IMG/VR virus record: IMGVR_UViG_3300009184_000006
Span: 1-55,553 of that record
Strand: one strand, 5' to 3'
DNA length: 55,553 nucleotides
From: a virus
Taxonomy: Duplodnaviria > Caudoviricetes
Part shown: positions 13,845 to 34,890 of the stretch, one piece after another
Position numbering within the stretch: position 1 is the first letter of the stretch
Layout: each line of letters opens with the position of its first letter
Made by a program: the position numbers and the translations under genes
The notes under the pieces: generated by a model
Database searches by the model: none
What the model was told of the DNA's origin: nothing
The model's input: the letters and a program-made list of their open reading frames with translations, nothing else

Positions 13845-14180
13845 CGTACGTGAGGGGAGAGAAGAGAAGCCCCATGTGGTGGTGCAACAACAGTTGGCGT
13901 CTAGAGCGAGTCGTGCTTTGTTCCATTGTTCCACGATGATGGAACAGCCGATGGAACACCCCGACAGGCCGAAAACCCGCGTCCCTCGGGGCTTCGTTCA
14001 CTTCGAACACCTTTTGTTCCATTGTTCCACCTCATACCCCCCCATATTTGAAGTGCGTTGACACGGCCAAGTCGCTCGCGTGCGTGGAACGCTGGAACAG
14101 CTGTTCTTTTTTCGAATGGGGAGGGCGTTCCGTTGGTTGTTCCATCTTGATGGAACGGTGGAACAGGGCTGGGGTTCCAC
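13845..14180. repeat. Element A: non-coding TGGAAC/GTTCCA repeat cluster, inverted homologue of element B
   Basis: About 12 motif copies; GTTCCA-N6-TGGAAC dyads at 13928-13945 and 14139-14156. Confidence 0.85.
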
Positions 14181-14225
14181 GGTGCTGGTGTTGGACCAGC
14201 ACGCCGCGTTGCGCGACGTCCCGTT

Positions 14226-14254
14226 ACTTTATCACACCTGAGCCAGCGCGTCAA
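14226..14254 (-). promoter_or_regulatory. Sigma70-like promoter pointing into element A and terS
   Basis: TTGACG-17-TAAAGT, with the AATAC prefix seen before other -35 boxes. Confidence 0.55.
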
Positions 14255-14705
14255 GTATTGCTTTGCTGTCTGCATTTCGATTCGAGTGCCACACCGCGTG
14301 AGACTCCCAGTCGGCCCGGGTCCACTTGTCGATTTGGAGTGCCGCGTCGCCACCCCGGAACAGGAACACGTCGCCGGTCGTCCCGAATTCGACCAGCAGC
14401 GCGATTTTCCCACCGCTCGTTTGGTGCCGCTCGGCCCAGTAGCGCTGTCCCGTGGTCCAGTGCCCGAGCCGGATGGGGGTTTTGACGCGGAGCGGGAAGT
14501 CGGCCACGACTTTCATTTCGATCCACCCATGCCAGCCGGGGTGGGCCAAGTACAGGTCCGGGGTGTCGCGTTTGACCCGGTTCTCGACGCGGGTCAGGTG
14601 GGCGAGGTGGCCGATCCGGCGCACCACCCAGTCGTACAGTCGCTGTTCGGGGAGTCGCATGGGTTCGTGCCTTTCGAGGATTTGCCTTTTGCGCCAGCCG
14701 GTCAT
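14232..14705 (-). CDS. PD-(D/E)xK nuclease (VRR-NUC/Holliday-junction resolvase-like)
   Basis: E.RL...RVEN....TPDL...WIEMK...Q..W. Confidence 0.7.
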   Translation of the reverse strand: MTGWRKRQILERHEPMRLPEQRLYDWVVRRIGHLAHLTRVENRVKRDTPDLYLAHPGWHGWIEMKVVADFPLRVKTPIRLGHWTTGQRYWAERHQTSGGKIALLVEFGTTGDVFLFRGGDAALQIDKWTRADWESHAVWHSNRNADSKAILDALAQV

Positions 14706-15169
14706 GTGCGGAGTTTAGCACGCAGCGCGTTGGCCAGTCGCATGCTCGCCACCCCGGGGTTGGGCGCGTTGGTCAGAATCGCCGGATCAACACCGTACTG
14801 GGCGCACAGCGCGAGCCGGGAATCGGGCGAGCGATGGATCGCAAGCAGTTGGGCCACCGTGTCCAGCTCCCGGGGGGTCCGGGTGGGCTTCGAAGGGGTC
14901 CGGAAGGCCCGGAGCGGGGTCTCGGAGGCCTTCGGCGCACGGGGTTGGGGCGTGGGTACCCGGGCGATCTCGGAGGGCTTCCGGAGGCTTCCCGTTCCAC
15001 GTGAAACGATCCGGCCACCCTCGATGCAGGTGCCGTCCGAGAGCCGGTACTTGGTCCCGTTCTTTCGGGCGTACTCGCCCTTGGCCCACCAAGGCAGGTA
15101 TAGCGGGTCGTCCGTGCCCCGGGGGGCGTGCTCGGTGAGGACTTGGTCGATGGTGGTGGACTCAAGCAT
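14702..15169 (-). CDS. Hypothetical protein with C-terminal NxGxxxMxLxNxLR motif
   Basis: Coupled ORF; shares the motif with 15700..16212. Confidence 0.6.
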   Translation of the reverse strand: MLESTTIDQVLTEHAPRGTDDPLYLPWWAKGEYARKNGTKYRLSDGTCIEGGRIVSRGTGSLRKPSEIARVPTPQPRAPKASETPLRAFRTPSKPTRTPRELDTVAQLLAIHRSPDSRLALCAQYGVDPAILTNAPNPGVASMRLANALRAKLRT

Positions 15170-15416
15170 TGCGGCCACCTTTCACGTGCACGAGGCATTC
15201 GGCCACGCGATCGGACCACTTCTCGTCCGCGTCTTCGTTGTACGCGTCGAGGGTCTCGTCCAACGAGGCATCGTCCAAGTAGTCGTTGGCGCAGTCCACG
15301 AGGTCGTTGGCCATGGCGAGCAGCCCGACTTGCTCGGGGGTCAGGCCCAGCGCGGCGAGCGCTTGGGTGGCCAATTCGAGCTGCTTTTTCGCTTTGGTGG
15401 TGAGTCGTACTTGCAT
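15162..15416 (-). CDS. Small acidic early protein
   Basis: First gene after the promoter/leader at 15421-15479. Confidence 0.7.
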   Translation of the reverse strand: MQVRLTTKAKKQLELATQALAALGLTPEQVGLLAMANDLVDCANDYLDDASLDETLDAYNEDADEKWSDRVAECLVHVKGGRNA

Positions 15417-15420
15417 TTTT

Positions 15421-15479
15421 GTGTCCTCTATCGGTTGGTTGAAAAGCCCAATTATACCACGGCTGGGGCTATTTGTCAA
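15421..15479 (-). promoter_or_regulatory. Early promoter cassette: sigma70 promoter + conserved leader/RBS
   Basis: TTGACA-17-TATAAT; leader CAACCAACCGATAGAGGAC. Confidence 0.9.
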
Positions 15480-15494
15480 GTATTACGAAAGTAT

Positions 15495-15707
15495 TCATCC
15501 GCCCAAATGTTCGTCGACGAAGGTCTCCAGCGCCCGGAGGGCGAGCCAGTGGTCCACCCGGGAGCCGTCCGCTGCCTGATCGGCAAAGGTGGCGTCGACC
15601 TTTTGCGGGGAGACGTTGGCCACGAACTGGATCCGTTGACCGTTGAGCAGCATTTCGCCGGACAAGGTGGCCGAAGCCACCCGGACCGCAGCGCGGACTT
15701 TATGCAT
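15495..15707 (-). CDS. Small hypothetical early protein
   Basis: 70 aa; AAGGA RBS; coupled to upstream gene. Confidence 0.6.
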   Translation of the reverse strand: MHKVRAAVRVASATLSGEMLLNGQRIQFVANVSPQKVDATFADQAADGSRVDHWLALRALETFVDEHLGG

Positions 15708-16212
15708 TTGCGGTTTCCTTCAAAGCTTTGCGAAGCATGTTGCCGAGATTCATGCGTTGCATGCCGACATTGAGGTGACCAAAGCGCTCGCGCAGACCGG
15801 CTTGCGAGATGCCGGTGGCTTTCGACACGTGGGCCACCACCTGCTCCAGCGTCATCGGACGCAGAGCCAGCGCCACGGCGTCGCCCTTGTCGATCGAGCG
15901 TTTCACGTCGCCGGACTTGGTCACGGTGCTGTACGACACGTATTGGGGCAGGTAGCCGCTGTACACGACGCCATTTTTGCGATCTTCGATCGGCAGCTTC
16001 GAGCGGGGAGCCTTGGCGCTCTCGGTGCTCTGCTCGGCCTTGGCAATGTAGGCGCGGGTGATGGGCGCGTCGACGACGGTGTGGCCCGACAGCTCGCCGT
16101 TGCGCAGCTTGATCTGCTTCGTATTGCCGATAACACGGGCTGTGGTCCAGCCGCCGTTTTTAGCGATGATTTCGACTTGCTGGCTGGTTTTGGTGATGAT
16201 TGCTACGTTCAT
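15700..16212 (-). CDS. Hypothetical early protein with C-terminal NxGxxxMxLxNxLR motif
   Basis: Start follows the promoter/leader at 16218-16275. Confidence 0.7.
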   Translation of the reverse strand: MNVAIITKTSQQVEIIAKNGGWTTARVIGNTKQIKLRNGELSGHTVVDAPITRAYIAKAEQSTESAKAPRSKLPIEDRKNGVVYSGYLPQYVSYSTVTKSGDVKRSIDKGDAVALALRPMTLEQVVAHVSKATGISQAGLRERFGHLNVGMQRMNLGNMLRKALKETANA

Positions 16213-16217
16213 GGTGA

Positions 16218-16275
16218 TGTCCTCTATTGGTTGGTTGAAAAGCTTAATTATAACACGGGTGGAACAGTTTGTCAA
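16218..16275 (-). promoter_or_regulatory. Early promoter cassette
   Basis: TTGACA-17-TATAAT; the spacer contains TGTTCCA; conserved leader. Confidence 0.9.
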
Positions 16276-16289
16276 GTATACCGAAGGTA

Positions 16290-16541
16290 TTACTCGCAGT
16301 GGTGGTGTACGACACGTGCGGCGTTGCGAATGACTTCGCCGTTCATGTCGAAAGCGCGATCGAAACCCCAGCCCTCAGCGACCAAGGTCTCGAGCACGGC
16401 TTCCAAATCCGTTTGGCCGCAGCCACCGTTCATCACGCTGTCGCCGGTGGCGAGGTCGTAAATCGTGGCTGTACGACCGGCGTTGCCGAATCCGGCGCAT
16501 GCGCTGAACTCGATGCTGTAGCTGGCTGGGAGTGCTTTCAT
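16290..16541 (-). CDS. Small hypothetical early protein
   Basis: 83 aa behind its own promoter. Confidence 0.7.
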   Translation of the reverse strand: MKALPASYSIEFSACAGFGNAGRTATIYDLATGDSVMNGGCGQTDLEAVLETLVAEGWGFDRAFDMNGEVIRNAARVVHHHCE

Positions 16542-16545
16542 TCGT

Positions 16546-16604
16546 TGTCCTCTATCGGTTGGTTGAAAAGTCTAATTATACCACGGGGGCAATACCTTTG
16601 TCAA
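16546..16604 (-). promoter_or_regulatory. Early promoter cassette
   Basis: TTGACA-18-TATAAT + conserved leader. Confidence 0.85.
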
Positions 16605-16607
16605 GTA

Positions 16608-16889
16608 TTACAGCCGTATTACAAAGATCCCGGACGGATCTTGCGCGGTGTCGACGTACTCTTGCACGCCGGGGGTCCACTCGGCATCGGGCCAATAGAC
16701 CACGTAGCCCATGCCCAGATGGTCCACGCGACACCCCTCTTTCGGCAAGCCCTCTAGGTCGCTGCCCCGCTCGATAGTGCAAGCGACGCACGATTTGCCG
16801 TACATGAAGCGGCCAGAATAGGACCACGGCTGCAGCTCGCGATTGAGAATCGCGTCGACCAAATCCATCGTTGTGTTCAGAATCATCAT
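16608..16889 (-). CDS. Small hypothetical early protein
   Basis: YSGRFMYGKSC...DHLGMGYVVYWP; ATGA coupling. Confidence 0.65.
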   Translation of the reverse strand: MMILNTTMDLVDAILNRELQPWSYSGRFMYGKSCVACTIERGSDLEGLPKEGCRVDHLGMGYVVYWPDAEWTPGVQEYVDTAQDPSGIFVIRL

Positions 16890-17131
16890 GGAAAAGCCCT
16901 CATTTCTTCGAGTTGACGAACATTTTTGCGAATTTGCATTTGTCGATCGCGGATCGCGTCGATTTCGCACCACACCTTGCGCACGTACTCGCTCGATGCG
17001 AGTTCGTGCTCGTGGATGCGCAGCACCTCGTAGCAGTCCTGCAATGCGCACTGCAAGCCGTAGGTGTCGGACTGGGCGAATTTACGGCGAAAGACCGCCG
17101 CAAGGTCTTGGTAGGAGATCGTGCGATTCAT
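16886..17131 (-). CDS. Small hypothetical early protein
   Basis: 81 aa; ATGA coupling; GGAG RBS. Confidence 0.65.
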   Translation of the reverse strand: MNRTISYQDLAAVFRRKFAQSDTYGLQCALQDCYEVLRIHEHELASSEYVRKVWCEIDAIRDRQMQIRKNVRQLEEMRAFP

Positions 17132-17391
17132 ACGCGCTCCACGGTGCCGACCAGTTGGCCATCAGCGATTTCGAACAGCACGTGCTTTGCGATGTTCAGA
17201 GTCTTGCGTGCACGCTCGGTGTCGCCCATGGCCAGCAGCTCTTGCGCGTCGGACATCAACCCGGCCACCACCATGTGGCCACCGGAGCATTTGTAAGTGA
17301 TCGAGTCGGTCAGATCGCGAATGTACTGGTCGATGTCTTCGACGCCGTACATGCTCATGTTGCAAACGATTTGTGTTCTGGTCAGTGCCAT
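17128..17391 (-). CDS. Small hypothetical early protein
   Basis: 87 aa behind a promoter cassette. Confidence 0.7.
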   Translation of the reverse strand: MALTRTQIVCNMSMYGVEDIDQYIRDLTDSITYKCSGGHMVVAGLMSDAQELLAMGDTERARKTLNIAKHVLFEIADGQLVGTVERV

Positions 17392-17397
17392 GGTGCT

Positions 17398-17455
17398 TGT
17401 CCTCTATCGGTTGGTTGAAAAGCCCAATTATAACACGCGTGGGACAATCTGTCAA
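17398..17455 (-). promoter_or_regulatory. Early promoter cassette
   Basis: TTGACA-17-TATAAT + conserved leader. Confidence 0.9.
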
Positions 17456-18207
17456 GTACCCCCCTCCAAGAACCGATCGATCTCCTGCGACAGCGAGTGC
17501 ATGCCGCTGTTGACGAGCTTGACCACCGGGACCACCGCACGCACCCGGTCCTGCGCTGCATGGCTTATGAACTTGGTCATGAGAAAAGCCGCGTCGACTT
17601 TCGGTATAGCCCTAGATTTCGCCTCGTCCGCTGTGTAAAACAGCAGGACCACATTCTGCTTTCGGTACTGGGTCGCGACCATGCTGGCTTGGCTATCCAG
17701 CAACCCCACGACCAGAATGTAGGGACGCGGCTTTTTGCACGAATCGGGCAACCAGCCACCATCGATCGACGCACGCCGGAACTCGGCATTTCGCTTGGCG
17801 TATTCCGCGTCGAACTGGTCGTCCACATCTTTGTACACTTGTGCACGCAGCCGAGCCTCGACTTTGTCGAGCACTTGCTCCACGAGCCGATCCACGAGAG
17901 CGGCGAAAAGTACGCCTATATCGGTATCGTTTCGCAATTGCGGGGGTGGCGCGGGTTCGGTAGCCACAGGTGCCGGTTTGGGCAGATTCTTCACCCGGGC
18001 TTTAGCAATGGTTCTCGCCTCCGCGATTCGCGCTTTGTAGGTGTGCACGCGTTGGTCGGTGATTTTCACACGACGATCTTTCACCAGCACATTCTGCGCG
18101 TGGTGCATCGCGGTGCGGTTGGTGGTGAGCGGCTGCTCGATAAACACATCGATCATCGATGCAAACACGGCAGTCTTTTCTTCGTTCGTCCAAACGGTTC
18201 GGGTCAT
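17452..18207 (-). CDS. Hypothetical protein, possibly DNA-binding
   Basis: 251 aa; ATAGAGGAC RBS; N-terminal WTNEEK; C-terminal alpha/beta domain with TKFISH. Confidence 0.65.
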   Translation of the reverse strand: MTRTVWTNEEKTAVFASMIDVFIEQPLTTNRTAMHHAQNVLVKDRRVKITDQRVHTYKARIAEARTIAKARVKNLPKPAPVATEPAPPPQLRNDTDIGVLFAALVDRLVEQVLDKVEARLRAQVYKDVDDQFDAEYAKRNAEFRRASIDGGWLPDSCKKPRPYILVVGLLDSQASMVATQYRKQNVVLLFYTADEAKSRAIPKVDAAFLMTKFISHAAQDRVRAVVPVVKLVNSGMHSLSQEIDRFLEGGT

Positions 18208-18226
18208 GGCTTTTGTCCTCTATGCT

Positions 18227-18257
18227 AAAAAAAGGGGAGACCATCGCTGGCCCCCCC
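18227..18257 (-). terminator. Intrinsic terminator
   Basis: GGGGGCCA...TGGTCTCCCC + T7. Confidence 0.65.
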
Positions 18258-18297
18258 GAACTCTTGGCAACTGCAGCATTTCGCCGCAGCCCCCCTA

Positions 18298-19275
18298 TTA
18301 TACCAGCGACAATGCGGTGTCCAGTGCGTCGCGTTTGAGGCGTGCACCGGCACCAAACCAAGCGGACTGCAAGCGGGTGTCCCGCGAGGTTGCACCACGC
18401 TCGTGGTCGGCGAACCGGGTGACTGCGTTGAGCAAGCCCCATGCGGTGCCGGTCGCGGTCTTGGTGCGTTGGCCCACACCGTCGAGGTAGATCTTGGTCA
18501 CCAGCTCGATCATCGGGCGCTTAGCCTTGGGGTCGATCTCCTCCTCTTCGCCGTAGAACACGTCGAGGAAGTACTTCGCGGCTTCCTCTTTCGACACCTT
18601 GCGCTTGCTCAGCGTCGTGGCGTTCGACTTGAACTGGTCCCAGGCTCCCCCGACTAGACCCAGCTCGGTCTTGAATCGCACCGGGTTGAACTGCGTGCTG
18701 TGCGGTACCCGGATCTGGCCCGATTTGTTGCCCACGGCAACGGACAGCGTGTTGTTGCACACGACGCGGGTGGTCGTGAACTGTGCGCTGTTGGACAATG
18801 TGCCATCGCACGAGGTAGCGAGCAGCAGATAAGGCAGGACCACGTCGCCGCCACCCACGTCGAACGAGTCATCAGCCTTGGCCAACGCCCAGTAAGTCGC
18901 GCCATTGCGCAGCATCCCAGCGGTCTCCATCTTGAAGCCGCCCACCTCGCACAAGTCGCGAAAGAACTCCATCACGTCGCGGGGTTGAGTGATGTGGTAG
19001 TTGCTCGACATCACCGAAAGGGGAGCACCTGTATCGCTCCGGTACAACGCCCAGCGCTTGGGTACGGTCTGCATGCGCACCGGTGCGTCGTTCTCGTCGC
19101 GCACCTCGTAGGCGATCGCGCCCTTTTTCACGGTCCAGTCGAACCCGGCTTCGCGGGTCCAAGTATCGAGATTCGCATCGGGGGTCAGCACCTGACCTAA
19201 ACCGTGCCACGGGGTCTCGCCGACGTAGGCCATGGATGCTTTACCGGCAGCGTTTGTGTGTAGTTCGTGAGCCAT
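18298..19275 (-). CDS. DUF932-family (phage/plasmid TIGR03299-like) protein
   Basis: MAYVGETPWHGLG, ETAG.LR.G, TSCDGT, RVVCNNT, GTAWGLLNAVT. Confidence 0.85.
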   Translation of the reverse strand: MAHELHTNAAGKASMAYVGETPWHGLGQVLTPDANLDTWTREAGFDWTVKKGAIAYEVRDENDAPVRMQTVPKRWALYRSDTGAPLSVMSSNYHITQPRDVMEFFRDLCEVGGFKMETAGMLRNGATYWALAKADDSFDVGGGDVVLPYLLLATSCDGTLSNSAQFTTTRVVCNNTLSVAVGNKSGQIRVPHSTQFNPVRFKTELGLVGGAWDQFKSNATTLSKRKVSKEEAAKYFLDVFYGEEEEIDPKAKRPMIELVTKIYLDGVGQRTKTATGTAWGLLNAVTRFADHERGATSRDTRLQSAWFGAGARLKRDALDTALSLV

Positions 19276-19282
19276 TGTGTAG

Positions 19283-19340
19283 TCCTCTATTCGTTGGTTG
19301 ATGAAGATGCTATTATAACACGCGTGGGACAATCTGTCAA
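19283..19340 (-). promoter_or_regulatory. Early promoter cassette
   Basis: TTGACA-17-TATAAT; spacer identical to that of the 17398-17455 promoter. Confidence 0.9.
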
Positions 19341-19351
19341 GTATTGTCCGA

Positions 19352-19546
19352 TCAATCCAGCGTTTCCCAAGTCTCGCCTTGGTGTCCGCATTCGTAGCAG
19401 AACCAGCCCATCTTGGCCCACGAAAGGTCCAAGCGGGGGTCCGACTTTTGAGCCAGTATCCGCACCTGCATGTCGCTTCGACACACGGGGCACGTTTGCT
19501 CGGTCTCTTCGGATTCCTCGGGTTCGTCTATGTCGTCTTCTGTCAT
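19352..19546 (-). CDS. Small Zn-ribbon protein
   Basis: CPVC...CYEC. Confidence 0.6.
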   Translation of the reverse strand: MTEDDIDEPEESEETEQTCPVCRSDMQVRILAQKSDPRLDLSWAKMGWFCYECGHQGETWETLD

Positions 19547-19555
19547 GGTCTGCCC

Positions 19556-19756
19556 TTAGTCTGTTTCGCCAGTCGATTCATCCAGCACGTCGTAGGGCGG
19601 GAGGAAGGCCACATCGGCCAACTGGCGTATGTTGCGAAATCGAGCCTCTTGCTCGGTAAGCAGCTTTCGAAAGTGGTCGTTCTCTTTGACCAGCCTTCGA
19701 ATGTCTTCGAGTGCGTCGCCCAGTGCAAGGTCGAGGATTCGTTCTTCATCGGTCAT
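19556..19756 (-). CDS. Small coiled-coil protein
   Basis: GGAGA RBS; ATGA coupling. Confidence 0.55.
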   Translation of the reverse strand: MTDEERILDLALGDALEDIRRLVKENDHFRKLLTEQEARFRNIRQLADVAFLPPYDVLDESTGETD

Positions 19757-19857
19757 CCCGGTCTCCAAAGTAAAAAGTCGAGCGCCAGCACGATGAGTGC
19801 GGCGAGGATTACTACGCGTTCAACGGTTTGCAGCAGTGTGTGGTTGAAAGGGCGCAT
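19753..19857 (-). CDS. 34-aa single-TM membrane protein (not in ORF track)
   Basis: MRPFNHTLLQTVERVVILAALIVLALDFLLWRPG; coupled on both sides. Confidence 0.6.
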   Translation of the reverse strand: MRPFNHTLLQTVERVVILAALIVLALDFLLWRPG

Positions 19858-20156
19858 TACAGGATCTCCATTTGGCGAATGTTCATCTTTTCGACGCTGT
19901 TCATGTGCTCTTTGCACCACTCTTCGCCCAGTGTGGCACGGGCTGCTGCGGAGTCCAAGCGCTGCTCGTTCGTGAACTTCACTTCGAGCTGGTAGGCCTT
20001 GCCTTTGTACACCATGTCCTGCCCTGCGCAGTCCTCGCGCAGCGCTTCTTTCAGTAACTTCTCGCGTGCGGTCAGTGCACGCAACTGGTCACGCACTTGG
20101 GCCAATTCGTCGATCATCGCGGTGGTGATCGTGGCGCGGGTTTTGGTCTTGCTCAT
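19857..20156 (-). CDS. Hypothetical early protein
   Basis: 99 aa behind a promoter cassette. Confidence 0.7.
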   Translation of the reverse strand: MSKTKTRATITTAMIDELAQVRDQLRALTAREKLLKEALREDCAGQDMVYKGKAYQLEVKFTNEQRLDSAAARATLGEEWCKEHMNSVEKMNIRQMEIL

Positions 20157-20158
20157 AT

Positions 20159-20218
20159 TGTCCTCTATCGGTTGGTTGTGGAAGGCCTTATTATACCACG
20201 GGTGGAATCATGTGTCAA
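20159..20218 (-). promoter_or_regulatory. Early promoter cassette
   Basis: TTGACA-17-TATAAT + conserved leader. Confidence 0.9.
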
Positions 20219-20483
20219 GTATCCTCTCGGCACTGATCTGGGCATACCCGGCTATATCGACCCACGAATCCCGGTTCTCCGGGTTGCCGTTTAGAATCCG
20301 CGACACTTTGTGCATGATCATGTCGAGCGATTCCTTCTGGTGCGATTTCAGCCGCTTCCATCCGTCTTGCTCGCGCATGTACTCTTTCAGATCTTGTGCG
20401 ATGATCCCTTGATGTGTGAAATCGCCGTACTCGGCCCCCCGCTCATCAGTGATCGCTTGTAGGTTAACTTTCAAGTGCTGCAA
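20208..20483 (-). CDS. DUF6378-like protein
   Basis: ERG..YGDF...LDMIMHKVSRILNG.P...DSWVDIAGYA. Confidence 0.75.
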   Translation of the reverse strand: MQHLKVNLQAITDERGAEYGDFTHQGIIAQDLKEYMREQDGWKRLKSHQKESLDMIMHKVSRILNGNPENRDSWVDIAGYAQISAERILDT

Positions 20484-21618
20484 CTAGTCCCCCTTTTCTA
20501 TACCGTCCTTTGATCGCATCGCTGGCCCCGGGCAATTCGAGCAGCTTGCGAGCTACGTCCTCCGGGTCTATACCGCGCTCCATACCGCTTATAAACGCCT
20601 CGGTGGAACCCGCACGCCCAAGAAGACCCGGGCCAAATGCCCTTGCCGGTCCCATGGTGCTGTAGGGCTGCGTCCCCTCTTGCCGTGCTCGCGTGGCGTA
20701 CCACTTGAGTGCGTCTAAATCCATCGGGTTGGCAAGATCGAAAATGCTCTCGTTCGCCAGCCCCTCGGGTCCATGCGCCCGGGCCAGCTGGGCCTCTCGT
20801 AGCGCCAGCAGTCCGGTCTGGGCTTGTGGCGAAAAGCGCAGCGTGTCGCGAGCCGAGGTGTTGATCGCGGTGTCGTACCGATTGCCCGGGCCAAGCAGCG
20901 ATTTCAACGCCTCTTCTTCTGCGTCGCCTCGTTTACCGCCATACATGGGCATGAACGGAAAAGGGTCGCCGCCGCCACCTTGGAACAGGGGTAAAAGGCC
21001 GTAGTCGCCGTGGGCGAGACCGGAGGACATCACGTTGCCGGGTCTGCGCAGCTGGTTGATGTTGGTCAAAATGTCGACGGAGTTTAGGTGGTTCCCAGCT
21101 CGCAATGCGTCGAACATCATAGCATAGGCCGATTTGCCTATACCCTCCGGCATCCCGACGGTCGTCAATCCATAGGGCGAGGGCTTACCACCAAACCACC
21201 CACTTTTTTGGTTCGCGTGCATCAACGTTTCCATCGGGTTACCGGCCAAGTCCGATGTGCTCCTCGCGGTGAAACCTAAATATTCCCCCGGTTCGTATGC
21301 ACCTGTGGGGTCTTCGAACACGATTTTTCCGCTCTCGGGCAAGTGCCCTTTGTCCATCGCCCTCTTGGCAGTGGTGGGGTGGCCCTCGGGAATCACCCGG
21401 GGCTTGAGTCTTTCGCCTTTAGGGTTTACAAGGTAGCCTTTGTCAAAGAATCGTTCTAGCACCTCCAATTCCAGCTCATTGGGTCTGAGTACACGCTCAG
21501 CGTTAGGAATCCGAGCCGCTTTAGGAGCCATTTGCATTACCTTATGGCCTCGTCCTATACCCTCGGCTAGATCATGAAACGAGTACCCGGCGGGGATTTT
21601 TTTAGGTGCTGGTGGCAT
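20464..21618 (-). CDS. Orphan 384-aa protein ending in YRKGGLV motif
   Basis: Long ORF overlapping both neighbours; no family recognised. Confidence 0.7.
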   Translation of the reverse strand: MPPAPKKIPAGYSFHDLAEGIGRGHKVMQMAPKAARIPNAERVLRPNELELEVLERFFDKGYLVNPKGERLKPRVIPEGHPTTAKRAMDKGHLPESGKIVFEDPTGAYEPGEYLGFTARSTSDLAGNPMETLMHANQKSGWFGGKPSPYGLTTVGMPEGIGKSAYAMMFDALRAGNHLNSVDILTNINQLRRPGNVMSSGLAHGDYGLLPLFQGGGGDPFPFMPMYGGKRGDAEEEALKSLLGPGNRYDTAINTSARDTLRFSPQAQTGLLALREAQLARAHGPEGLANESIFDLANPMDLDALKWYATRARQEGTQPYSTMGPARAFGPGLLGRAGSTEAFISGMERGIDPEDVARKLLELPGASDAIKGRYRKGGLVAALES

Positions 21619-22438
21619 AATAAACCTTGTCGGACATTTGGAGGGTGTTGAGGTGGATGTCTATCGTCTTTTGCATCGGGTCCGCGTAGCCGCCAGCAAG
21701 ATTCCACACTAGAGGGATCCCCGCTGCTTTTGCCGCTTCGAACATACCGCTGTCCCTCCGCATAAGACCCTTGACGGATAGATAACCGACGCCGTACGGG
21801 TCTTGGTCCCATGCGTCAGCACCAGCCTGATACATTATTATACCCGGCTTGTGGTCCTTGAGCAAGTCCTCGAAGTACGATTTCCACTTCGCAGTGCTAG
21901 CCCCGGCGAAGCGAAGCTTCCCGAAGTTATCGCGGGTGATGTGGGGCACCTGATCGCGCAGCCCCAAAAGCTCGATAATGTTGTCGGTTCCGTCCCCGTA
22001 GTGACCATCGCCGTCGACGATCATCACGCGCTGGATGTCGTACCGCTCCAGTAGGTGCACAGCGGCGACCATCAGCCCGTTGAACGTGCAGTACCCGTAG
22101 CAGTGGTCCCAGTGTGCGTGGTGAAAGCCCTGCGATGCGGAGCACGCCACACCGCCATTCTCCACGACATGGACTGCGGCGGCGAGGAAAGAGCCATTCG
22201 ACGCGAGCAGCGACCGGTTGATCTCGGGGTTGCGATTGCCGAACCCATTCTCGGTGACGCCGTCCATCACGGAGCGCACGAACTTCGGATCGTGAGCCAC
22301 TGCAATCTGGTCCACGGTCAGCGGCGTGGGAATGTGGTACTTGCGGTCCGACTGGCGCACGAATTCGGGGATCTTCTTGGTCGAGATCCAGTCGAATACG
22401 ACGTCTTGGTCCGGATGGTAGAACAGTGGTGTTGCCAT
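21602..22438 (-). CDS. Zn-dependent histone deacetylase/acetylpolyamine amidohydrolase-family enzyme
   Basis: GFHHAH, GYCTFN, VDGDGHYGDGT, YQAGAD....DP and AGGY all present. Confidence 0.9.
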   Translation of the reverse strand: MATPLFYHPDQDVVFDWISTKKIPEFVRQSDRKYHIPTPLTVDQIAVAHDPKFVRSVMDGVTENGFGNRNPEINRSLLASNGSFLAAAVHVVENGGVACSASQGFHHAHWDHCYGYCTFNGLMVAAVHLLERYDIQRVMIVDGDGHYGDGTDNIIELLGLRDQVPHITRDNFGKLRFAGASTAKWKSYFEDLLKDHKPGIIMYQAGADAWDQDPYGVGYLSVKGLMRRDSGMFEAAKAAGIPLVWNLAGGYADPMQKTIDIHLNTLQMSDKVYYATST

Positions 22439-22444
22439 GGTGTG

Positions 22445-22501
22445 TGCCCTCTATATGTTGATGAATCCCCGATTATACCACACGTCCTATACCTCTGTCA
22501 A
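22445..22501 (-). promoter_or_regulatory. Sigma70 promoter for the deacetylase operon
   Basis: TTGACA-18-TATAAT; ATAGAGGG RBS. Confidence 0.8.
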
Positions 22502-27768: not shown

Positions 27769-27827
27769 GTCCTCTATCAGTTGGTTAATGAAGCGGCCAT
27801 TATATCACCGCTGGAATGATCCGTCAA
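27769..27827 (-). promoter_or_regulatory. Sigma70 promoter + leader upstream of the ssb-like/dpoZ/purZ operon
   Basis: TTGACG-17-TATAAT; leader AACCAACTGATAGAGGAC. Confidence 0.8.
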
Positions 27828-27830
27828 TTA

Positions 27831-29243
27831 CTACAGTTTGTACCCGTTGTACCCCTCCACGATGTCCAGCACGTTCTTGCTCCGGGTCATCCCGACGTAG
27901 AACACTCGGACCTCGTCATCCGGCGATTTCTCAGCGGTCTGCTGCACCCGGGTGGTCATGTCCGTGAGAAGAATGACTCGATCCGCTTCGTGCCCTTTTG
28001 CAGCATGTATCGTGCTAAGTCGAATAGTCGGGGCCACGTCCAAGTCGGCGTCGGAGTAGAAGTCAATAACCCGCGCTGGGACATTGAGTGCCACATAAAA
28101 CGGTCGTTTGGCAAAGGCGTGATCGTTACGTTCGAGGTCTGCCCGGGTCTCTGCAGTAGCGATCGCAAATATTGCATTCCGCTCGCTATCTGCGATTCGC
28201 TCACCCCGGCCAAGCTTGCGGAAAGCCCGAACACCGGTGGCGTAACGATTTTGGTACATTCCCGGTCGGCCACTCTCGCGGGTGTACGGTATGCGTTTCT
28301 CAATGAGCGATTGTTCAACTTCGCGAAGGACTGAATGCGTCCGTCCCAGTAATAACGTATCCGTCCCGTGTTCGATTTCCACTGAGTTGATCGAGCCGTG
28401 TACTCGGACCAGTCCCAGATGCGCTCGGGGATTGAATGTCTTATCCACTCGGAAATTGACGCGACGGATGAGGTCTTGAGAGCGCGAGTGGACTGTAGAA
28501 GGAAGTCGATGCGATTGCGAGAGGACCGTATTACGACCCTTATGCCTTTGTGTGAATCGCGCCATACCGTGCACGTCTGCTCCCGCCCACGTGTAAATCG
28601 CTTGGTCATCATCCCCCGCGATAATGACTTGGTGAGAACGTCGGCAGAGCTTCTCGATGACAGCCCACTGCAAAGGTGATAGGTCTTGAGCTTCGTCGAC
28701 GAAGACCACTTCGGCGTCGGCGCGGACCGCCCCCTTAGCGGCTCGTTCCAGCATATCGGTAAAGTCGTAATAACCGTACGTAGATTTCCACTCAGAATAC
28801 GCCCGAACGAATGCATTGAACTCGGCACGGGTGCCGGGTCGGTCCGATACGTCGTAAACGTTGGCTGGATCATTAAACGTGTTTCTAGCGTAGTTGAGTA
28901 TGTCGAGATAGAAATCCCCATCTGCTCTCTCCTCATCGTCTTCGGGCGACTTGCCGATTACCGGCACACCCATCACTATCGAGAATTCGCGCAGCTTCAT
29001 CGGGTCCACCACCTGTGACTGGCGCATTCCCATATGGCGAAATGCCATCGCGTGAATCGTGGATACGTTGTCGGAGCGACGTAGTCCCAGTCTAGATAGC
29101 GCCTCGTTGGCTGCTGCACGGGTGAAAGATACGAAAGCCACGCGCTCGGCTTGCACTCCCGAGTCGCGTGTCTCCTTTACTCGCCTTAGTAACTCCGTCG
29201 TTTTGCCAGTCCCGGGTGGTCCGTAGATGGCCTCGACTTGCAT
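27831..29243 (-). CDS. Superfamily 1 (UvrD/Rep-like) helicase
   Basis: GPPGTGKT, STIH, VDEAQD, GDDDQAIY, STIHAAKG.E, YVGMTR. Confidence 0.9.
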   Translation of the reverse strand: MQVEAIYGPPGTGKTTELLRRVKETRDSGVQAERVAFVSFTRAAANEALSRLGLRRSDNVSTIHAMAFRHMGMRQSQVVDPMKLREFSIVMGVPVIGKSPEDDEERADGDFYLDILNYARNTFNDPANVYDVSDRPGTRAEFNAFVRAYSEWKSTYGYYDFTDMLERAAKGAVRADAEVVFVDEAQDLSPLQWAVIEKLCRRSHQVIIAGDDDQAIYTWAGADVHGMARFTQRHKGRNTVLSQSHRLPSTVHSRSQDLIRRVNFRVDKTFNPRAHLGLVRVHGSINSVEIEHGTDTLLLGRTHSVLREVEQSLIEKRIPYTRESGRPGMYQNRYATGVRAFRKLGRGERIADSERNAIFAIATAETRADLERNDHAFAKRPFYVALNVPARVIDFYSDADLDVAPTIRLSTIHAAKGHEADRVILLTDMTTRVQQTAEKSPDDEVRVFYVGMTRSKNVLDIVEGYNGYKL

Positions 29244-31274: not shown

Positions 31275-32993
31275 TAGATTCTCGTTTCTCGATGCAATGC
31301 TCGTGCGCACGAACTCCGACACGTCCTTCTTGCTCCGCAGCGCGTCCACTACGATCGCGTCCACCGTGCCTTCGGCTACGATGTCGATATAGGTCACCGA
31401 TTTCGTCTGCCCGATCCGGTGCGCCCGATCTTCCGATTGCTCGCGATCAGTGAAAGAGAATGAATTGCTGTAGTACACCACCAACTCGGCAGCGGTCATG
31501 TTCAGCCCCACACCCCCGGTGGCCGCATTACCAACGATGAACCGGGCGATACCCTTTTGGAACTTCTCCGACACGTTATCCCACCGCGTGTTCTCGTCGA
31601 TTGCACCATATATCTGCACCACCGAATCCTTGCCGTATTTCTCGACCAGTGCTTCCGTGATCATCTGGATCTCTTCGATGAACCGGCACCAAATGATTGT
31701 ACTGCATACGTTCTCTTCCACCACCGACATTAATTCATCAATCTTGGGGTTCTTGCCCGGTATACGTGTGTGCTCGAACTTCGCGGTGTTGTAGGTATCC
31801 GGGTTGCGCTCGTAGGTGATGATACCTCCGGCGATCTCTTGTAATCGGAGCATTCTTTCGAGGACGGTGTTAACGGTAATGCCTCGATCCCCAGATACTG
31901 CGCGGTCACGCTTAGCAATTTCTTTGTATAGTCGCTTTTGCTCTTCATTCAGTTGTACTTCTCTCGTTTCGTAAATCTTCGGCGGCAGCTCGGTGAGCAC
32001 GTCGCTTTTGCGCACTTGGTACACAAAGGGGGAGATCAGCTCGATCAATTCCTCCATGTTCTGGTATCCCACAATCTGCCGGTCTTCGTACCCGCCCATG
32101 ATCGCATATCGGTTGCGGAATGAATAAAAATCTCCGATCCCGATAATATTAGGGTCAAGGAACTCGAACTGCATGAACACGTCCATGGGTCCATTGGCGA
32201 TCGGCGTGCCGGTCATGATGATCTTGTACCGTGCCGATTTGCCCAAGTCCACACAATTCTTGCTGCGCACCGCGTTGTGCGTTTTAATCATGTGCGCCTC
32301 ATCCACAATCATCGCCACAGCGAGCGCGGAATTGACGAACGTCATGGAGTATTTTATTGCATTGCCAGCAGCAAGCGATTCGGTTCCCACGATCAGGAAT
32401 TTAAGGCCTTGATCGGTGCGTGCGTTCCACTCCTCGAATGCTTTCGCCTTGGAGGTATCGAGCACGTGCACATCGCATTGTACCGGGCAGTGAATTCCGA
32501 TCTCGGCTTCCCAGTTACGCCGGGTGCTGAACTTCGTGACCACCAACACTCGCTCGACTTTGCCGTCGATGAAGTGGGCCGACATCAGGTCCAGTGCCGT
32601 TTTGGTCTTGCCCGTTCCCATGTCCATGTAGAACGCGAACATTTCCTTCCCCCACGCCCGGTCGAGGGCAGTGCGCTGGTACTGGCGCGGGTTGGTCTTG
32701 AATGGATACAGGACCGGGAACGGGGTTACAGATCGCGATACACGTTCGATAGTCTGATTTGCAACTTCGCGAGCGATGCTTGTGAACACACCGTCATCAA
32801 AATTACTAAGGAGAAAGTCGCTGTTAGCCCGTAAAGCAGGAGCTGTCCACACGCGACGCTTAGAATCCCAACGCCGGTTAGGAATCTTGCGCACTCTGTC
32901 GACCATCCACGCAGGTGTGTGAATGACGAAGCGAGAAGTCTTAGGATCGTAGTCAATGCGGACATTAGAACTCGGATTCGAACTTGGGTTCAT
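31254..32993 (-). CDS. SNF2-family (SF2) helicase
   Basis: MDMGTGKT, VDEAH, TGTP, GGVGLN, QSEDRAHRIGQ. Confidence 0.92.
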   Translation of the reverse strand: MNPSSNPSSNVRIDYDPKTSRFVIHTPAWMVDRVRKIPNRRWDSKRRVWTAPALRANSDFLLSNFDDGVFTSIAREVANQTIERVSRSVTPFPVLYPFKTNPRQYQRTALDRAWGKEMFAFYMDMGTGKTKTALDLMSAHFIDGKVERVLVVTKFSTRRNWEAEIGIHCPVQCDVHVLDTSKAKAFEEWNARTDQGLKFLIVGTESLAAGNAIKYSMTFVNSALAVAMIVDEAHMIKTHNAVRSKNCVDLGKSARYKIIMTGTPIANGPMDVFMQFEFLDPNIIGIGDFYSFRNRYAIMGGYEDRQIVGYQNMEELIELISPFVYQVRKSDVLTELPPKIYETREVQLNEEQKRLYKEIAKRDRAVSGDRGITVNTVLERMLRLQEIAGGIITYERNPDTYNTAKFEHTRIPGKNPKIDELMSVVEENVCSTIIWCRFIEEIQMITEALVEKYGKDSVVQIYGAIDENTRWDNVSEKFQKGIARFIVGNAATGGVGLNMTAAELVVYYSNSFSFTDREQSEDRAHRIGQTKSVTYIDIVAEGTVDAIVVDALRSKKDVSEFVRTSIASRNENLLMGALG

Positions 32994-34518
32994 CGACTTT
33001 TACCTCATGATCTTCGGTGATTGGGGCATACCATACATTGAGCGTTTTGCCGCCCGGGATTCGCATCTTGTCGTGATCCGCGCCACAGTCGCGCCGGAGG
33101 GTGGTCCACAGATCCATCCCGGTCTGCGCTTCGGCCTTGTTGCGCTTGAGGTACTCGCTGAACGCTGTGCCTCTAAACACTATACAGCGCACGCCGTTGA
33201 TGACTTGCACCACCGGAATGTTGCGGGTGAGCGCCTTGCGATCCTCGATGTTGGAACCATCGCTCGACAGGTCGGCCTTTTGCACGAACTCGTGGAACTT
33301 GGACACGATCACCCCCGCAGCGGACGCCTCTTTCGGCACTTCGATCACGCGCAGCGTTGAGATCAGCGGGTCCAACACCCTCTTGCGCCACGATTCCTGA
33401 GTGATCTTGGGAATGTTGAGCTTGAGCTTTTCGAATATCAGTGTACCCATTGCAGCCGGGTCGCGCAGCACCACCGTGGGAATGTTTGCGATCAGCTTGC
33501 TGTTGACATGGATGCCCCAGCGGGGTGGCTCCGATTGGTACTCGATAAGCTCCGTGAACTGCGGGAGCGAGTCGTGTGCATCCAGATCTTTCATCTCGTC
33601 CATCGAGATCCCGAACTCACGGGTGATACACACTTTGCGATCGCACAGGTCTTTGCATGGAGCCTCGGCGCACTTGTACAGGTAGTCACGCCTCGACGCC
33701 GACCTAATCACCTTTTTGGCCTCGGATGGCCCCAGTGGCTTATCGAACATCGTCTTGTTCAGCGCCATCGCATCATCGAAGAACGTGTCGGGGCGTGCTC
33801 GCTTGAGGTAGACGGTCACGTTGTACATGGCCTCATTTCGCGCTCCGGATTCCACACCCGAGTGAATCATCTTTTGAATGCACGGCGGTGCTTCCAAATG
33901 CTCACGCTGGGATAGCTCAGTCAGCTCCGCGACCGTGATCCGCTTGGACTGGGCGTGCTGCACGAACAGCTCGAAGGACATCGGCTTGCCATCATCATCG
34001 AACGCGTACCGGGCGGTCTTGTCGGCGTCGAAGTATCCGAGGTTGATCCAGTTGCCCAGTGCCTTTTCGCCACCACTGGTCACCAGCGAGTCCTGCTTCG
34101 GGAAGATCTCAGTCTTGTACTGGATCTCCAGCATGTCGCGCCAGCTGGTTAGTATACGTTGGACTTGCTTGGCCGGGAGATACTCTTGACCGAACAGATA
34201 AAGATGCGCTCCTCCTCGCTTAGTCCGACACATAACAAGCGGTAGGCGGTATTCTCGGATGCGATCAGCAATGGCTCGGAAATCAATGTCTTCCGGAGTG
34301 TCATGCTTATCAACGTCAATAGCACCAAAAAGACAAGTACCCCCGTCAGTAATAGGCACGATGCCCAGACCCATTTTGCCATTGATATGATTTTCATAGT
34401 CCTCTATCCTTACTTCACCTTTTTCGGTGATCATGCTACCACTTGCTGGGTCCCACTGCCCGTAACTTCGTAAGTTACCGGAGAAGAGGCCAGCAAAGTC
34501 TTTCACTAGACTTGTCAT
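32965..34518 (-). CDS. Archaeo-eukaryotic primase (AEP) with PriCT-like domain
   Basis: GAIDVD, RTKRGGAHLYLF, APPC...GARNEAMY, C-terminal Cys cluster; no NTPase motif. Confidence 0.8.
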   Translation of the reverse strand: MTSLVKDFAGLFSGNLRSYGQWDPASGSMITEKGEVRIEDYENHINGKMGLGIVPITDGGTCLFGAIDVDKHDTPEDIDFRAIADRIREYRLPLVMCRTKRGGAHLYLFGQEYLPAKQVQRILTSWRDMLEIQYKTEIFPKQDSLVTSGGEKALGNWINLGYFDADKTARYAFDDDGKPMSFELFVQHAQSKRITVAELTELSQREHLEAPPCIQKMIHSGVESGARNEAMYNVTVYLKRARPDTFFDDAMALNKTMFDKPLGPSEAKKVIRSASRRDYLYKCAEAPCKDLCDRKVCITREFGISMDEMKDLDAHDSLPQFTELIEYQSEPPRWGIHVNSKLIANIPTVVLRDPAAMGTLIFEKLKLNIPKITQESWRKRVLDPLISTLRVIEVPKEASAAGVIVSKFHEFVQKADLSSDGSNIEDRKALTRNIPVVQVINGVRCIVFRGTAFSEYLKRNKAEAQTGMDLWTTLRRDCGADHDKMRIPGGKTLNVWYAPITEDHEVKVDEPKFESEF

Positions 34519-34544
34519 CGTTTACCCCTATACCTCTATGATTA

Positions 34545-34573
34545 TTGACACCACTTCCGTGGGCTGATAGAAT
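34545..34573 (+). promoter_or_regulatory. Plus-strand sigma70 promoter pointing into element B
   Basis: TTGACA-17-TAGAAT; no credible plus-strand gene downstream. Confidence 0.65.
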
Positions 34574-34600
34574 TATAACATCTCGCCATCGGAACATCAA
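34572..34600 (-). promoter_or_regulatory. Sigma70-like promoter for the primase operon
   Basis: TTGATG-17-TATAAT with extended -10. Confidence 0.65.
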
Positions 34601-34609
34601 CCCTCACCG

Positions 34610-34890
34610 TTTGTTCCACCGTTCCATAGCAATGGAACACATGATGGAACACCCTCTCCCATTCGACAGACAGGACATCTGTTCCACCGTTCCATGCGCA
34701 CGCGGGGGAATTCTTGTCGCAGCTCGTTGACAGAACCTCGACCGGATATGGAACAGATGGAACAATGGAACAGAACCACTCAGAGTCCCGACCGACGCGG
34801 CCTCTCGGCCTGTTAACTGTTCCAGACGCCGTTCCATTATTATGGAACAGATAGACTATCTTGGGGTTCTCTCGTGCATGCGCATGTAAG
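34610..34890. repeat. Element B: non-coding TGGAAC/GTTCCA repeat cluster; candidate replication origin or ncRNA
   Basis: 12 motif copies; dyads at 34621-34638 and 34831-34848; colinear with the reverse complement of element A. Confidence 0.85.

What the first reader, a model, noticed from the sequence alone, without database searches (positions are those of the whole stretch)
13845..34890. Twin inverted ~300-bp repeat elements bracket the whole early/replication/Z block
Seen: the reverse complement of element A (13845-14180) is colinear with element B (34610-34890). Example 1: A-rc TGTTCCACCGTTCCATcaagATGGAACA...CCCTC-CCCATTCGA...CTGTTCCAgCGTTCCAcGCaCgCG versus B TGTTCCACCGTTCCATagcaATGGAACA...CCCTCtCCCATTCGA...CTGTTCCAcCGTTCCAtGCgCaCG. 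Example 2: both continue TGGAACAATGGAACA...GACGCGG...TCGGCCTGT...TGTTCCA...GTTCCAT...TGGAACA. The motifs are conserved while the linkers diverge, which suggests selection on function. These are the two largest non-coding gaps, one beside the primase gene and one beside terS. Established: the IncQ plasmid RSF1010 uses an AEP-type primase at two opposite-strand ssi sites for strand-displacement replication. Inference: two strand-specific origins 20 kb apart. Alternatives are ends of a mobile or invertible module, or paired ncRNAs. I know no description of this arrangement in Z-phages.
Basis: partly seen in the sequence, partly recalled or inferred. Interest (0 to 1): 0.85.

Follow-up and report, generated by a model that had tools for sequence, protein, structure and literature searches.

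The report
Twin iteron cassettes in Z-phage
Two copies of a 300-base non-coding cassette packed with short protein-binding repeats sit at the two borders of this phage's replication genes and are most likely its replication origins, a layout shared by its relatives.

Summary
Observation confirmed. The window is a complete ~55.4-kb purZ siphophage with all genes on the minus strand. The gaps before terS (13735-14231) and before the AEP primase (34519-34958) hold one ~330-bp cassette in inverted orientation (local score 68 inverted, 25 direct, shuffles at most 15). Each copy has 13 TGGAAC half-sites, set as 6-N6-6 dyads and 8-bp doublets. The pair is inverted in 9 of 9 related genomes that hold both copies, and in cultured Acinetobacter phage DMU1 (iteron GAGCAACC). 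It is direct in PMBT28, PSA28 and Kokobel2. So two copies are conserved, but their relative orientation is not. I found no structured RNA, no recombinase and no inverted form. The cassette is itself pseudo-palindromic. One copy always abuts the primase promoter, and sigma70-like promoters read into both. Best reading (about 0.5): twin iteron-type replication origins, nearest to SaPI ori in build and to SPP1 oriL/oriR in number, but without any AT-rich unwinding tract. The RSF1010-style strand-specific reading is not supported. This scan noted the same arrangement before on two other Z-phage genomes (e1-1957513, e1-3451765). My searches found no paper that describes it.

The parts
13735..14231 (-). 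Element A: the whole non-coding gap between the 157-aa phrog_2165 gene and terS. terS starts at ATG 13734 or at the in-frame TTG 13770.
   Evidence: aligned with B
13920..14179 (-). Element A iteron core: 13 half-sites (TGGAAC/GTTCCA) forming Boxes I-IV, as dyads 6-N6-6 and doublets at an 8-bp period
13836..13852 (-). X box of A: a 17-nt alternating purine/pyrimidine tract, the longest in the genome, at the terS-proximal end
14111..14120 (-). Conserved linker 1 (CCCATTCGAA) of A
14034..14047 (-). Central ATAT plus G-run patch of A, the pseudo-dyad centre of the cassette
14226..14254 (-). Sigma70-like promoter TTGACG-17-TAAAGT, which reads into element A from its Box I end
   Evidence: a similar site occurs in 27 of 47 relatives against 5.2% of control windows
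34519..34958 (+). Element B: the whole non-coding gap between the last late gene (679 aa, phrog_5880) and the AEP primase gene
34590..34848 (+). Element B iteron core: 13 half-sites, colinear with A-rc
34873..34888 (+). X box of B: a 16-nt alternating purine/pyrimidine tract at the end far from the primase
34657..34665 (+). Conserved linker 1 (CCCATTCGA) of B
34786..34813 (+). Conserved G+C hairpin-like linker 3 (GACGCGG..TCGGCCTGT) of B; its counterpart in A lies at about 13959-13990
34545..34573 (+). Sigma70-like promoter TTGACA-17-TAGAAT (11 of 12) on the otherwise gene-free plus strand, reading into element B
   Evidence: a site of 11/12 or better occurs in 6 of 10 B-type loci, and in L006 it is kept although the primase promoter is displaced
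34572..34600 (-). Primase (early) promoter TTGATG-17-TATAAT, overlapping face to face with the promoter that reads into B
32965..34518 (-). AEP primase, 517 aa (AEP domain, PriCT_1, and an unnamed ~210-aa C-terminal domain); candidate iteron-binding initiator by inference only
13072..13770 (-). terS, first gene of the late block, downstream of element A

Best explanation
Each element is a roughly 330-bp cis-acting cassette of short binding sites (half-site TG[G/T]AAC) for one phage-encoded sequence-specific DNA-binding protein. The sites form two opposed arms around a small ATAT/G-run centre. Most likely the cassettes are the phage's two replication origins. Element B abuts the promoter of the AEP primase gene at the head of the replication operon. 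Element A is a second copy at the early-to-late border in front of terS. I infer, without evidence, that the binding protein is the primase itself, through its unnamed C-terminal domain. I also infer that it assembles on both arms of a cassette and opens or primes the DNA there. The sigma70-type promoters that read into each cassette from the Box I end may help opening, because there is no AT-rich unwinding tract. By analogy with SPP1, the second copy could serve as a late origin or as a protein-bound fork barrier that helps the switch to concatemer synthesis next to the packaging genes. Shown here: the repeat anatomy, its conservation in two copies, turnover of the iteron sequence between clades, and concerted evolution of the two copies. 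Inferred: protein binding, the identity of the protein, and origin activity.
For: (1) Anatomy. Each copy has 13 half-sites. 97 of 99 dyads across relatives keep an exact 6-nt spacer of free sequence, as expected for a dimeric protein site. The cassette is pseudo-palindromic. (2) Conservation. 58 of 80 terL-anchored IMG/VR loci show the cassette upstream of terS. Of the 22 without it, 21 hold under 1 kb of upstream DNA, and one (L051) has a different upstream context. All 9 primase-anchored loci have it upstream of the primase. 32 A-type and 8 reverse-complemented B-type copies align colinearly over about 330 nt. (3) Both copies are inverted in 9 of 9 genomes of this clade (58-154 against 15-38) and in cultured phage DMU1 (92 against 20), where the iteron is GAGCAACC. 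PMBT28, PSA28 and Kokobel2 also carry two copies, with TGGAACG or TGGAACC iterons. Keeping the architecture while the iteron changes argues for a co-evolving protein. (4) Concerted evolution. In contig 3300042896_000260 the A-B score is 154, against at most 63 to any other A and at most 91 to any other B. The same-genome diagonal sum of 842 was reached by 1 of 20000 permutations. (5) One copy always lies directly upstream of the primase gene in every lineage examined. The primase is a Prim-Pol fold (CAPP 5e-12, RepB' 2.6e-4). (6) Published precedents. SaPI ori is about 300 bp, with iterons oppositely disposed beside the primase/rep gene and bound by the Rep C-terminal winged helix (bioRxiv 10.64898/2026.10.17.759575, passages read). 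SPP1 has two similarly built origins bound by one protein, with oriR proposed as a fork barrier (PMC6316719 section 3.5 passages; PMC3485210 abstract). (7) Promoter-like sites read into both copies.
Against: There is no functional evidence of any kind. Neither copy has an AT-rich unwinding element. Element AT content is 0.45-0.47, equal to the genome mean of 0.45. The best 30-nt window reaches 0.63 in A and 0.70 in B, and the same holds in DMU1, PMBT28 and Kokobel2. Cumulative GC and AT skew show no switch at A or B, although a one-strand gene layout would mask one. The genome has no DnaB-type helicase and no SPP1 gp38-type organizer, and the primase has no helicase domain, so the initiation machinery is unknown. 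The primase C-terminal domain has no significant structural match: 0 hits at E<=0.001. The weak hits (E 0.06-0.3) to Cch, SaPIbov1 Rep and PadR-type winged helices are only leads. In PMBT28 and Kokobel2 each copy sits just upstream of a strong sigma70 promoter in the same orientation, which fits an operator or regulatory role equally well. In more distant primase relatives (27-43% identity), the 600 nt upstream of the gene show no obvious iteron array in most of the 70 loci examined.
Confidence: 0.5

Rival explanations
1. The cassettes are operator or insulator arrays for a phage transcription factor that times the early and late operons and isolates them on a one-strand genome. Under this reading they have no origin function.
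For: Element B ends 12 nt from the -35 of the primase promoter, which overlaps face to face with an opposing promoter, a layout suited to a switch. Element A lies between a promoter-like site and terS. In PMBT28 and Kokobel2 both copies sit directly upstream of strong TTGACA-17-TATAAT promoters in the same orientation. The cassettes have no AT-rich tract. 6-N6-6 dyads are typical operators.
Against: Thirteen half-sites spread over 260 bp is far more than known operators need. In this clade and in DMU1, the copy before terS is flipped, so different ends of the cassette face the downstream genes. No HTH or repressor family was found among the 30 early-region ORFs scanned. One copy is tied to the primase gene in every lineage.
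Confidence: 0.25
2. The two elements are strand-specific single-strand initiation sites, like RSF1010 ssiA/ssiB, used by the AEP primase on opposite strands for strand-displacement replication.
For: The primase is an AEP enzyme whose model matches RepB' (3h20, E 2.6e-4). The copies are inverted in this clade and in DMU1. Each copy has a conserved G+C hairpin-like linker.
Against: The copies are direct in PMBT28, PSA28 and Kokobel2. The cassette is internally symmetric, so it has no clear polarity. Skew shows no switch. In RSF1010 the two ssi sites lie side by side within one oriV (recalled), not 20 kb apart.
Confidence: 0.07
3. The cassettes are recognition arrays for packaging (pac/cos-type, bound by terS) or for segregation (centromere-like).
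For: Element A lies directly upstream of terS here and in DMU1. Arrays of short repeats in both orientations are known at pac sites and at omega-type centromeres (recalled; PMC4627068 seen only in a search listing).
Against: In PMBT28, PSA28 and Kokobel2 the second copy lies 2-5 kb upstream of terS/terL, behind several small genes. The other copy is always at the primase, far from terS. Contigs of two runs run through element A, and the output lists no pile of molecule ends there (these are contigs only, so the test is weak).
Confidence: 0.08
4. The inverted repeats are the ends of an invertible or mobile replication module.
For: The arms are inverted, about 300 bp long, and bracket a 20-kb module. 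Concerted evolution shows that the copies do recombine or convert.
Against: The genome has no Resolvase or Phage_integrase family gene. The primase and terL lie on the same strand in 9 of 9 genomes and in DMU1, so no inverted isomer has been assembled. An X1 contig crosses element A colinearly with 0 differences, and an X5 contig covers 13868-14439. None of the 15 listed joints lies at A; 8 more joints were not shown. In sister clades the copies are direct and do not bracket the whole module.
Confidence: 0.02
5. The two elements are paired structured non-coding RNAs transcribed from the promoters that face into them.
For: Promoter-like sites read into both copies in the same element orientation.
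Against: Rfam gave no match. The RNAalifold consensus over 40 sequences is only -16.7 kcal/mol, with a covariation term of -0.99, and all its pairs are iteron against iteron. Of the 20 dyads that carry a T-type half-site, 12 are mixed and therefore not compensated. Direct doublets cannot pair with each other.
Confidence: 0.03

Closest known systems
Bacillus phage SPP1 oriL / oriR (two origins bound by gp38)
   Same: SPP1 is also a siphovirus transcribed from one strand. It has two distant regions of like build. One is tied to the initiator gene. The other lies in an intergenic stretch of the late or border region and is proposed to act as a fork barrier for the theta-to-sigma switch (PMC6316719 passages; PMC3485210 abstract).
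   Different: SPP1 origins have direct repeats plus an AT-rich unwinding element, and they use gp38, gp39 and a DnaB-type gp40. Here there is no AT-rich tract, no Phage_rep_org_N and no DnaB_C. The half-sites form dyads and doublets, and the neighbouring gene is an AEP primase.
SaPI/PICI replication origins with Rep or PriRep5
   Same: The SaPI ori is a non-coding region of about 300 bp next to the primase/rep gene. It has short iterons in opposed sets, some of them inverted, read by a C-terminal domain of the replication protein. The SaPI5 iteron TGCAACC resembles the GNAAC core seen here and in DMU1. That resemblance may be chance.
   Different: SaPI ori has a roughly 100-bp AT-rich centre, occurs as a single copy, and its Rep carries an SF3 or MCM helicase. 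Here the centre is a patch of 4-14 nt, there are two copies, and the primase has no helicase domain. A winged helix in the primase C-terminus is not shown.
RSF1010 (IncQ) oriV ssiA/ssiB with primase RepB'
   Same: Both use an AEP-fold primase (Foldseek hit to 3h20, E 2.6e-4), and both have two initiation signals of opposite polarity.
   Different: The ssi sites are adjacent single-strand hairpin signals within one oriV, and separate iterons bind RepC (recalled). Here the cassettes are internally symmetric double-strand arrays 20.7 kb apart, and their relative orientation is not conserved.
Satellite phage P4 ori and crr bound by the alpha primase-helicase (recalled; only a reference title seen)
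   Same: Two separated clusters of short iterons are bound by one primase-containing initiator, and the second cluster is needed in cis.
   Different: The P4 alpha protein has a helicase and a solved winged-helix origin-binding domain, and ori and crr are a few kb apart and of unlike build (recalled). None of this was tested here.

Membership tests
SPP1-type twin origins | Two separated regions of the same repeat organisation in one genome | tested here: met
SPP1-type twin origins | gp38-type origin-binding organizer (Phage_rep_org_N) and a DnaB-type helicase | tested here: not met
   PF09681 and PF03796 are absent from the genome
SPP1-type twin origins | AT-rich DNA unwinding element beside the repeats | tested here: not met
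   Element AT is 0.45-0.47, equal to the genome mean; the best 30-nt window is 0.63/0.70
SaPI/PICI-type ori | Non-coding region of about 300 bp next to the primase/rep gene, with 5-7-nt iterons in opposed sets | tested here: met
   the feature itself is taken from the passages read
SaPI/PICI-type ori | Long central AT-rich region | tested here: not met
SaPI/PICI-type ori | Rep with a helicase and a C-terminal winged helix that reads the iterons | tested here: inconclusive
   Pfam finds only AEP-TOTE and PriCT_1. The C-terminal model has no significant PDB match; the weak hits include SaPIbov1 Rep 8tch_B at E 0.3
RSF1010 ssiA/ssiB priming sites | RepB'-like AEP primase | tested here: met
   Foldseek hit to 3h20 at E 2.6e-4; Pfam AEP domain
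RSF1010 ssiA/ssiB priming sites | Opposite polarity of the two sites is required | tested here: not met
   The copies are direct in PMBT28, PSA28 and Kokobel2, and the cassette is pseudo-palindromic
RSF1010 ssiA/ssiB priming sites | Strand-specific priming on the single-stranded site | not testable with these tools
   This needs a primase assay
Site-specific invertible segment (Gin/Hin type) | A recombinase gene and both orientations present in the population | tested here: not met
   No PF00239 or PF00589. A single orientation in 9 of 9 genomes and in DMU1. Contigs are colinear across A
Known structured RNA family | Rfam match or covariation-supported structure | tested here: not met

The most novel reading that the evidence does not exclude
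Z-genome phages of this primase family use a distinct origin design. It has twin iteron cassettes and no AT-rich unwinding element, because 2-aminoadenine:T pairs remove the easy melting of A+T DNA. Instead, the DNA is opened by transcription entering the cassette from dedicated sigma70 promoters (R-loop type) and/or by the iteron-bound AEP primase priming directly. The second copy, next to the packaging genes, acts as a protein-bound barrier or late origin that turns circle replication into concatemer synthesis.
Probability: 0.12. Interest if true: 0.8.

Novelty: new variant of a known kind. Interest (0 to 1): 0.55.

Why it matters
Nothing is known about how phages that replace adenine with 2-aminoadenine start DNA replication. 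Their DNA lacks weak A:T pairs, so the usual AT-rich melting site should not work. These cassettes give a concrete, conserved candidate for the origin. They are present in cultured phages of Acinetobacter, Salmonella, Providencia and Pseudomonas, where the idea can be tested directly. They also point to the unnamed C-terminal domain of a very large viral primase family (2681 cluster representatives at E<=0.001) as a possible origin reader. If both copies are origins, this is a second, independent case of the SPP1-type two-origin layout. If the cassettes are only operators, the finding is a routine regulatory feature.

Tried and rejected
- **Skew.** Cumulative GC and AT skew is monotonic with no switch at A or B. 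It is uninformative because all genes share one strand.
- **RNA genes.** Rfam at gathering thresholds gave no match, and ARAGORN found no tRNA.
- **DNA similarity to cultured phages.** blastn of the A region against 50,697 phage records gave no match. The B region matched only inside the primase gene of two Acinetobacter phages.
- **Sequencing runs.** 22 runs were listed, all Logan contigs of DNA metagenomes. No RNA holder was listed.
- **Read laying on 4000-23999 with X1, X3, X4 and X5.** Contigs cross or cover A colinearly. No joint at A appears among the 15 shown (8 more were not shown), and no pile of ends is listed. Contigs cannot show rare isomers or true ends.
- **Primase C-terminal domain.** There is no Pfam family and no PDB sequence match beyond the AEP domain. 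Its nearest Atlas clusters are unnamed. The full-length model (pLDDT 94.9) matched only Prim-Pol folds. The C-terminal-only model (pLDDT 68.8, from 8 close sequences) gave 0 hits at E<=0.001.
- **Iteron against primase-residue co-variation.** 80 distant primase loci were fetched. Of these, 70 had at least 450 nt upstream, and most show no clear iteron array there. A few are enriched for GAAAC or GGAAC. There are too few independent changes for a test, so I dropped it.
- **Alternating purine/pyrimidine tracts.** The genome has 11 runs of at least 12 nt against 12.2 expected, so there is no overall enrichment. Only the two X boxes stand out as the longest.
- **Literature.** No paper holds both 'iterons' and '2-aminoadenine', or both 'PhiVC8' and 'iterons'. 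Papers naming PMBT28, Kokobel2, SH-Ab 15497, K21lambda1 or DMU1 were listed. Two were searched for origin, repeat and iteron terms, with nothing relevant. The P4 ori/crr search found no P4 paper.
- **Not used.** Complex prediction was not run, because no protein-protein claim is made.

Full report
**What the window is.** The window carries a 123-bp direct overlap of its two ends, and IMG/VR classes it as complete with direct terminal repeats. The overlap lies inside coding sequence, so it is probably a circular-assembly overlap. All recognisable genes are on the minus strand. In transcription order they run as follows:
- AEP primase (32965-34518; phrog_21866, PF22548 plus PriCT_1)
- SNF2 helicase
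- Pam3 gp33/gp34-like proteins
- UvrD helicase
- family-A polymerase
- PurZ-type adenylosuccinate synthetase and a dATP/dGTP pyrophosphohydrolase
- an HDAC-like protein, DUF932 and small ORFs
- a 157-aa phrog_2165 protein (14232-14705)
- terS, terL and the structural genes, round to a 679-aa phrog_5880 protein that ends at 34959

So element B (34519-34958) is the late-to-early border, and element A (13735/13771-14231) is the early-to-late border.

**The observation.**
- A-rc and B+ align colinearly.
- The local alignment score is 68 inverted and 25 direct, with shuffles reaching at most 15. With all iterons masked, the linkers still score 20 against 10.
- TGGAACA is 3.8-fold over-represented, and 18 of its 29 copies lie in the two elements.
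- Each element has 13 relaxed half-sites.
The only correction is that the primase flanks B and terS flanks A.

**Conservation within the clade.**
- Nine IMG/VR contigs encode a primase 75-82% identical to this one. All nine carry the cassette upstream of it. The half-site is sometimes TGTAAC instead of TGGAAC.
- Of 80 contigs found through terL, 58 show the cassette upstream of terS. Of the 22 without it, 21 hold less than 1 kb upstream, and L051 has a different upstream context.
- I aligned 32 A-type copies (the window plus 31 of 46 non-identical loci) with 8 reverse-complemented B-type copies (the window plus 7 of 9; L005 and L007 were left out as near-duplicates). They are colinear over about 330 nt.

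The shared order of parts along the cassette is:
1. Box I (--++)
2. the linker CCCATTCGAAAAA
3. Box II (--) with an alternating purine/pyrimidine run
4. an ATAT/G-run centre
5. Box III (++)
6. a GGACGCGGG hairpin-like linker, which in some relatives is the inverted copy of linker 1
7. Box IV (--++)
8. CAGACGCC, then CACCACCAC
9. the X box, a 14-17-nt alternating tract

The cassette is therefore pseudo-palindromic.

**Orientation and concerted evolution.**
- In all 9 genomes of the clade that hold both copies, the inverted score (58-154) exceeds the direct score (15-38). The primase and terL are on the same strand in all of them.
- Same-genome A-B similarity exceeds what shuffled pairings give (1 of 20000 permutations reaches it).
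- In one lineage, A-B similarity (154) exceeds the similarity of either copy to its orthologues (at most 63 and at most 91). The copies therefore exchange sequence.

**Wider family.** Cultured phages with a 40-45% identical primase share the one-strand layout.
- DMU1, a relative of the Z-genome phage SH-Ab 15497, has two cassettes with the iteron GAGCAACC. One is upstream of the primase and one upstream of terS, and they are inverted (92 against 20).
- PMBT28, PSA28 and Kokobel2 have TGGAACG or TGGAACC iterons. Their second copy lies 2-5 kb upstream of terS/terL, in direct orientation and followed by a strong sigma70 promoter.
- So two copies, one always at the primase, are conserved. The iteron sequence turns over around a GNAAC core. 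The relative orientation is specific to each clade.

**Protein sites rather than RNA.**
- 97 of 99 dyads keep a 6-nt spacer of free sequence. Of the 20 dyads with a T-type half-site, 12 are mixed.
- RNAalifold finds only iteron-iteron pairs, at -16.7 kcal/mol with a covariation term of -0.99.
- Rfam gives no match.
- A frame stays open through the core in only 24 of 47 relatives.

**Promoters.**
- A plus-strand TTGACA-17-TAGAAT site at 34545-34573 reads into B. It overlaps face to face with the primase promoter at 34600-34572.
- Six of 10 B-type loci have such a site at 11/12 or better. That includes L006, where the primase promoter has moved.
- A TTGACG-17-TAAAGT site at 14254-14226 reads into A.
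- 27 of 47 relatives have a comparable site, against 5.2% of control windows. The site lies in the 3' end of a gene, and the loci are related to each other.
- The scan found no such inward-reading sites in DMU1.

**Arguments against a classical origin.**
- There is no AT-rich tract in any of the four lineages.
- Skew shows no switch.
- The genome has no DnaB and no gp38-type protein.
- The primase C-terminal domain has no significant structural relative.

**Arguments against inversion or mobility.**
- The genome has no recombinase.
- Every assembly shows a single orientation.
- Contigs of other runs are colinear across A.

**Reading.** The cassettes are binding arrays for a co-evolving phage protein. 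An origin function is the best fit at about 0.5. The build resembles SaPI ori, and the two-copy layout resembles SPP1 oriL/oriR, where the second origin is thought to stall forks and trigger concatemer synthesis. An operator or insulator role is the main rival at 0.25. The RSF1010-like strand-specific model is weak at 0.07. The missing AT-rich element is either evidence against an origin or, more interestingly, what one would expect in DNA whose A is replaced by 2-aminoadenine.

**Earlier notes.** Two earlier notes of this scan (e1-1957513, e1-3451765) reached a similar reading on other Z-phage genomes. They are not independent evidence.

Noticed in passing
window 1-123 and 55431-55553: A 123-bp exact direct overlap of the two ends lies inside coding sequence (an ORF runs off both ends). 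It is probably a circular-assembly overlap and not a physical terminal repeat, although IMG/VR classes the record as DTR.
   Followed up: partly
window 15422-15482, 16218-16278, 16546-16606, 17398-17458, 19282-19344, 20160-20222, 27769-27831: Seven copies of a ~60-nt cassette. On the minus strand it reads as TTGACA-17-TATAAT plus a shared leader and ribosome-binding site, and each copy heads a small early transcription unit (families D4/D6).
   Followed up: no
window 34545-34600: Two sigma70-like promoters on opposite strands have overlapping -10 boxes (face to face), so RNA polymerase can occupy only one at a time. This could be a switch between primase expression and transcription into element B.
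   Followed up: partly
window 34945-34960: The palindrome AGCTACTTAGATAGCT overlaps the stop codon of the last late gene. Relatives have GCTATATATATAGC-type palindromes at the same place. It has no G+C stem or T run, so it does not look like an intrinsic terminator.
   Followed up: no
window 50251-53250: The 999-aa late protein is built of 8-12 diverged repeats with periods of about 200-260 nt (families D1-D5). It is probably a repetitive tail fibre.
   Followed up: no
window 21602-22438: A 278-aa protein in the nucleotide-metabolism part of the early region has a histone-deacetylase domain (PF00850, 1.4e-32).
   Followed up: no
L092 (Kokobel2) 13271-13500: This stretch duplicates the region that follows the tail gene (as at 39014-39100). 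It is followed by three tandem ATCTTTTGTACCC repeats and a strong TTGACA-17-TATAAT promoter, a third regulatory module apart from the two iteron cassettes.
   Followed up: partly
L051 3700-4400: One contig with a terL 83% identical to the window's lacks the cassette upstream of terS. It appears to have opposite-strand coding sequence there instead, so its module junction is different or the contig is chimeric.
   Followed up: partly
L116, L122, L124 (600 nt upstream of distant primase homologues): The 6-mer GTTTCA (reverse complement TGAAAC) occurs 5 times and the pentamer GAAAC (either strand) 6 times in the 600 nt. This again fits a TGNAAC core in primases only about 29% identical.
   Followed up: no
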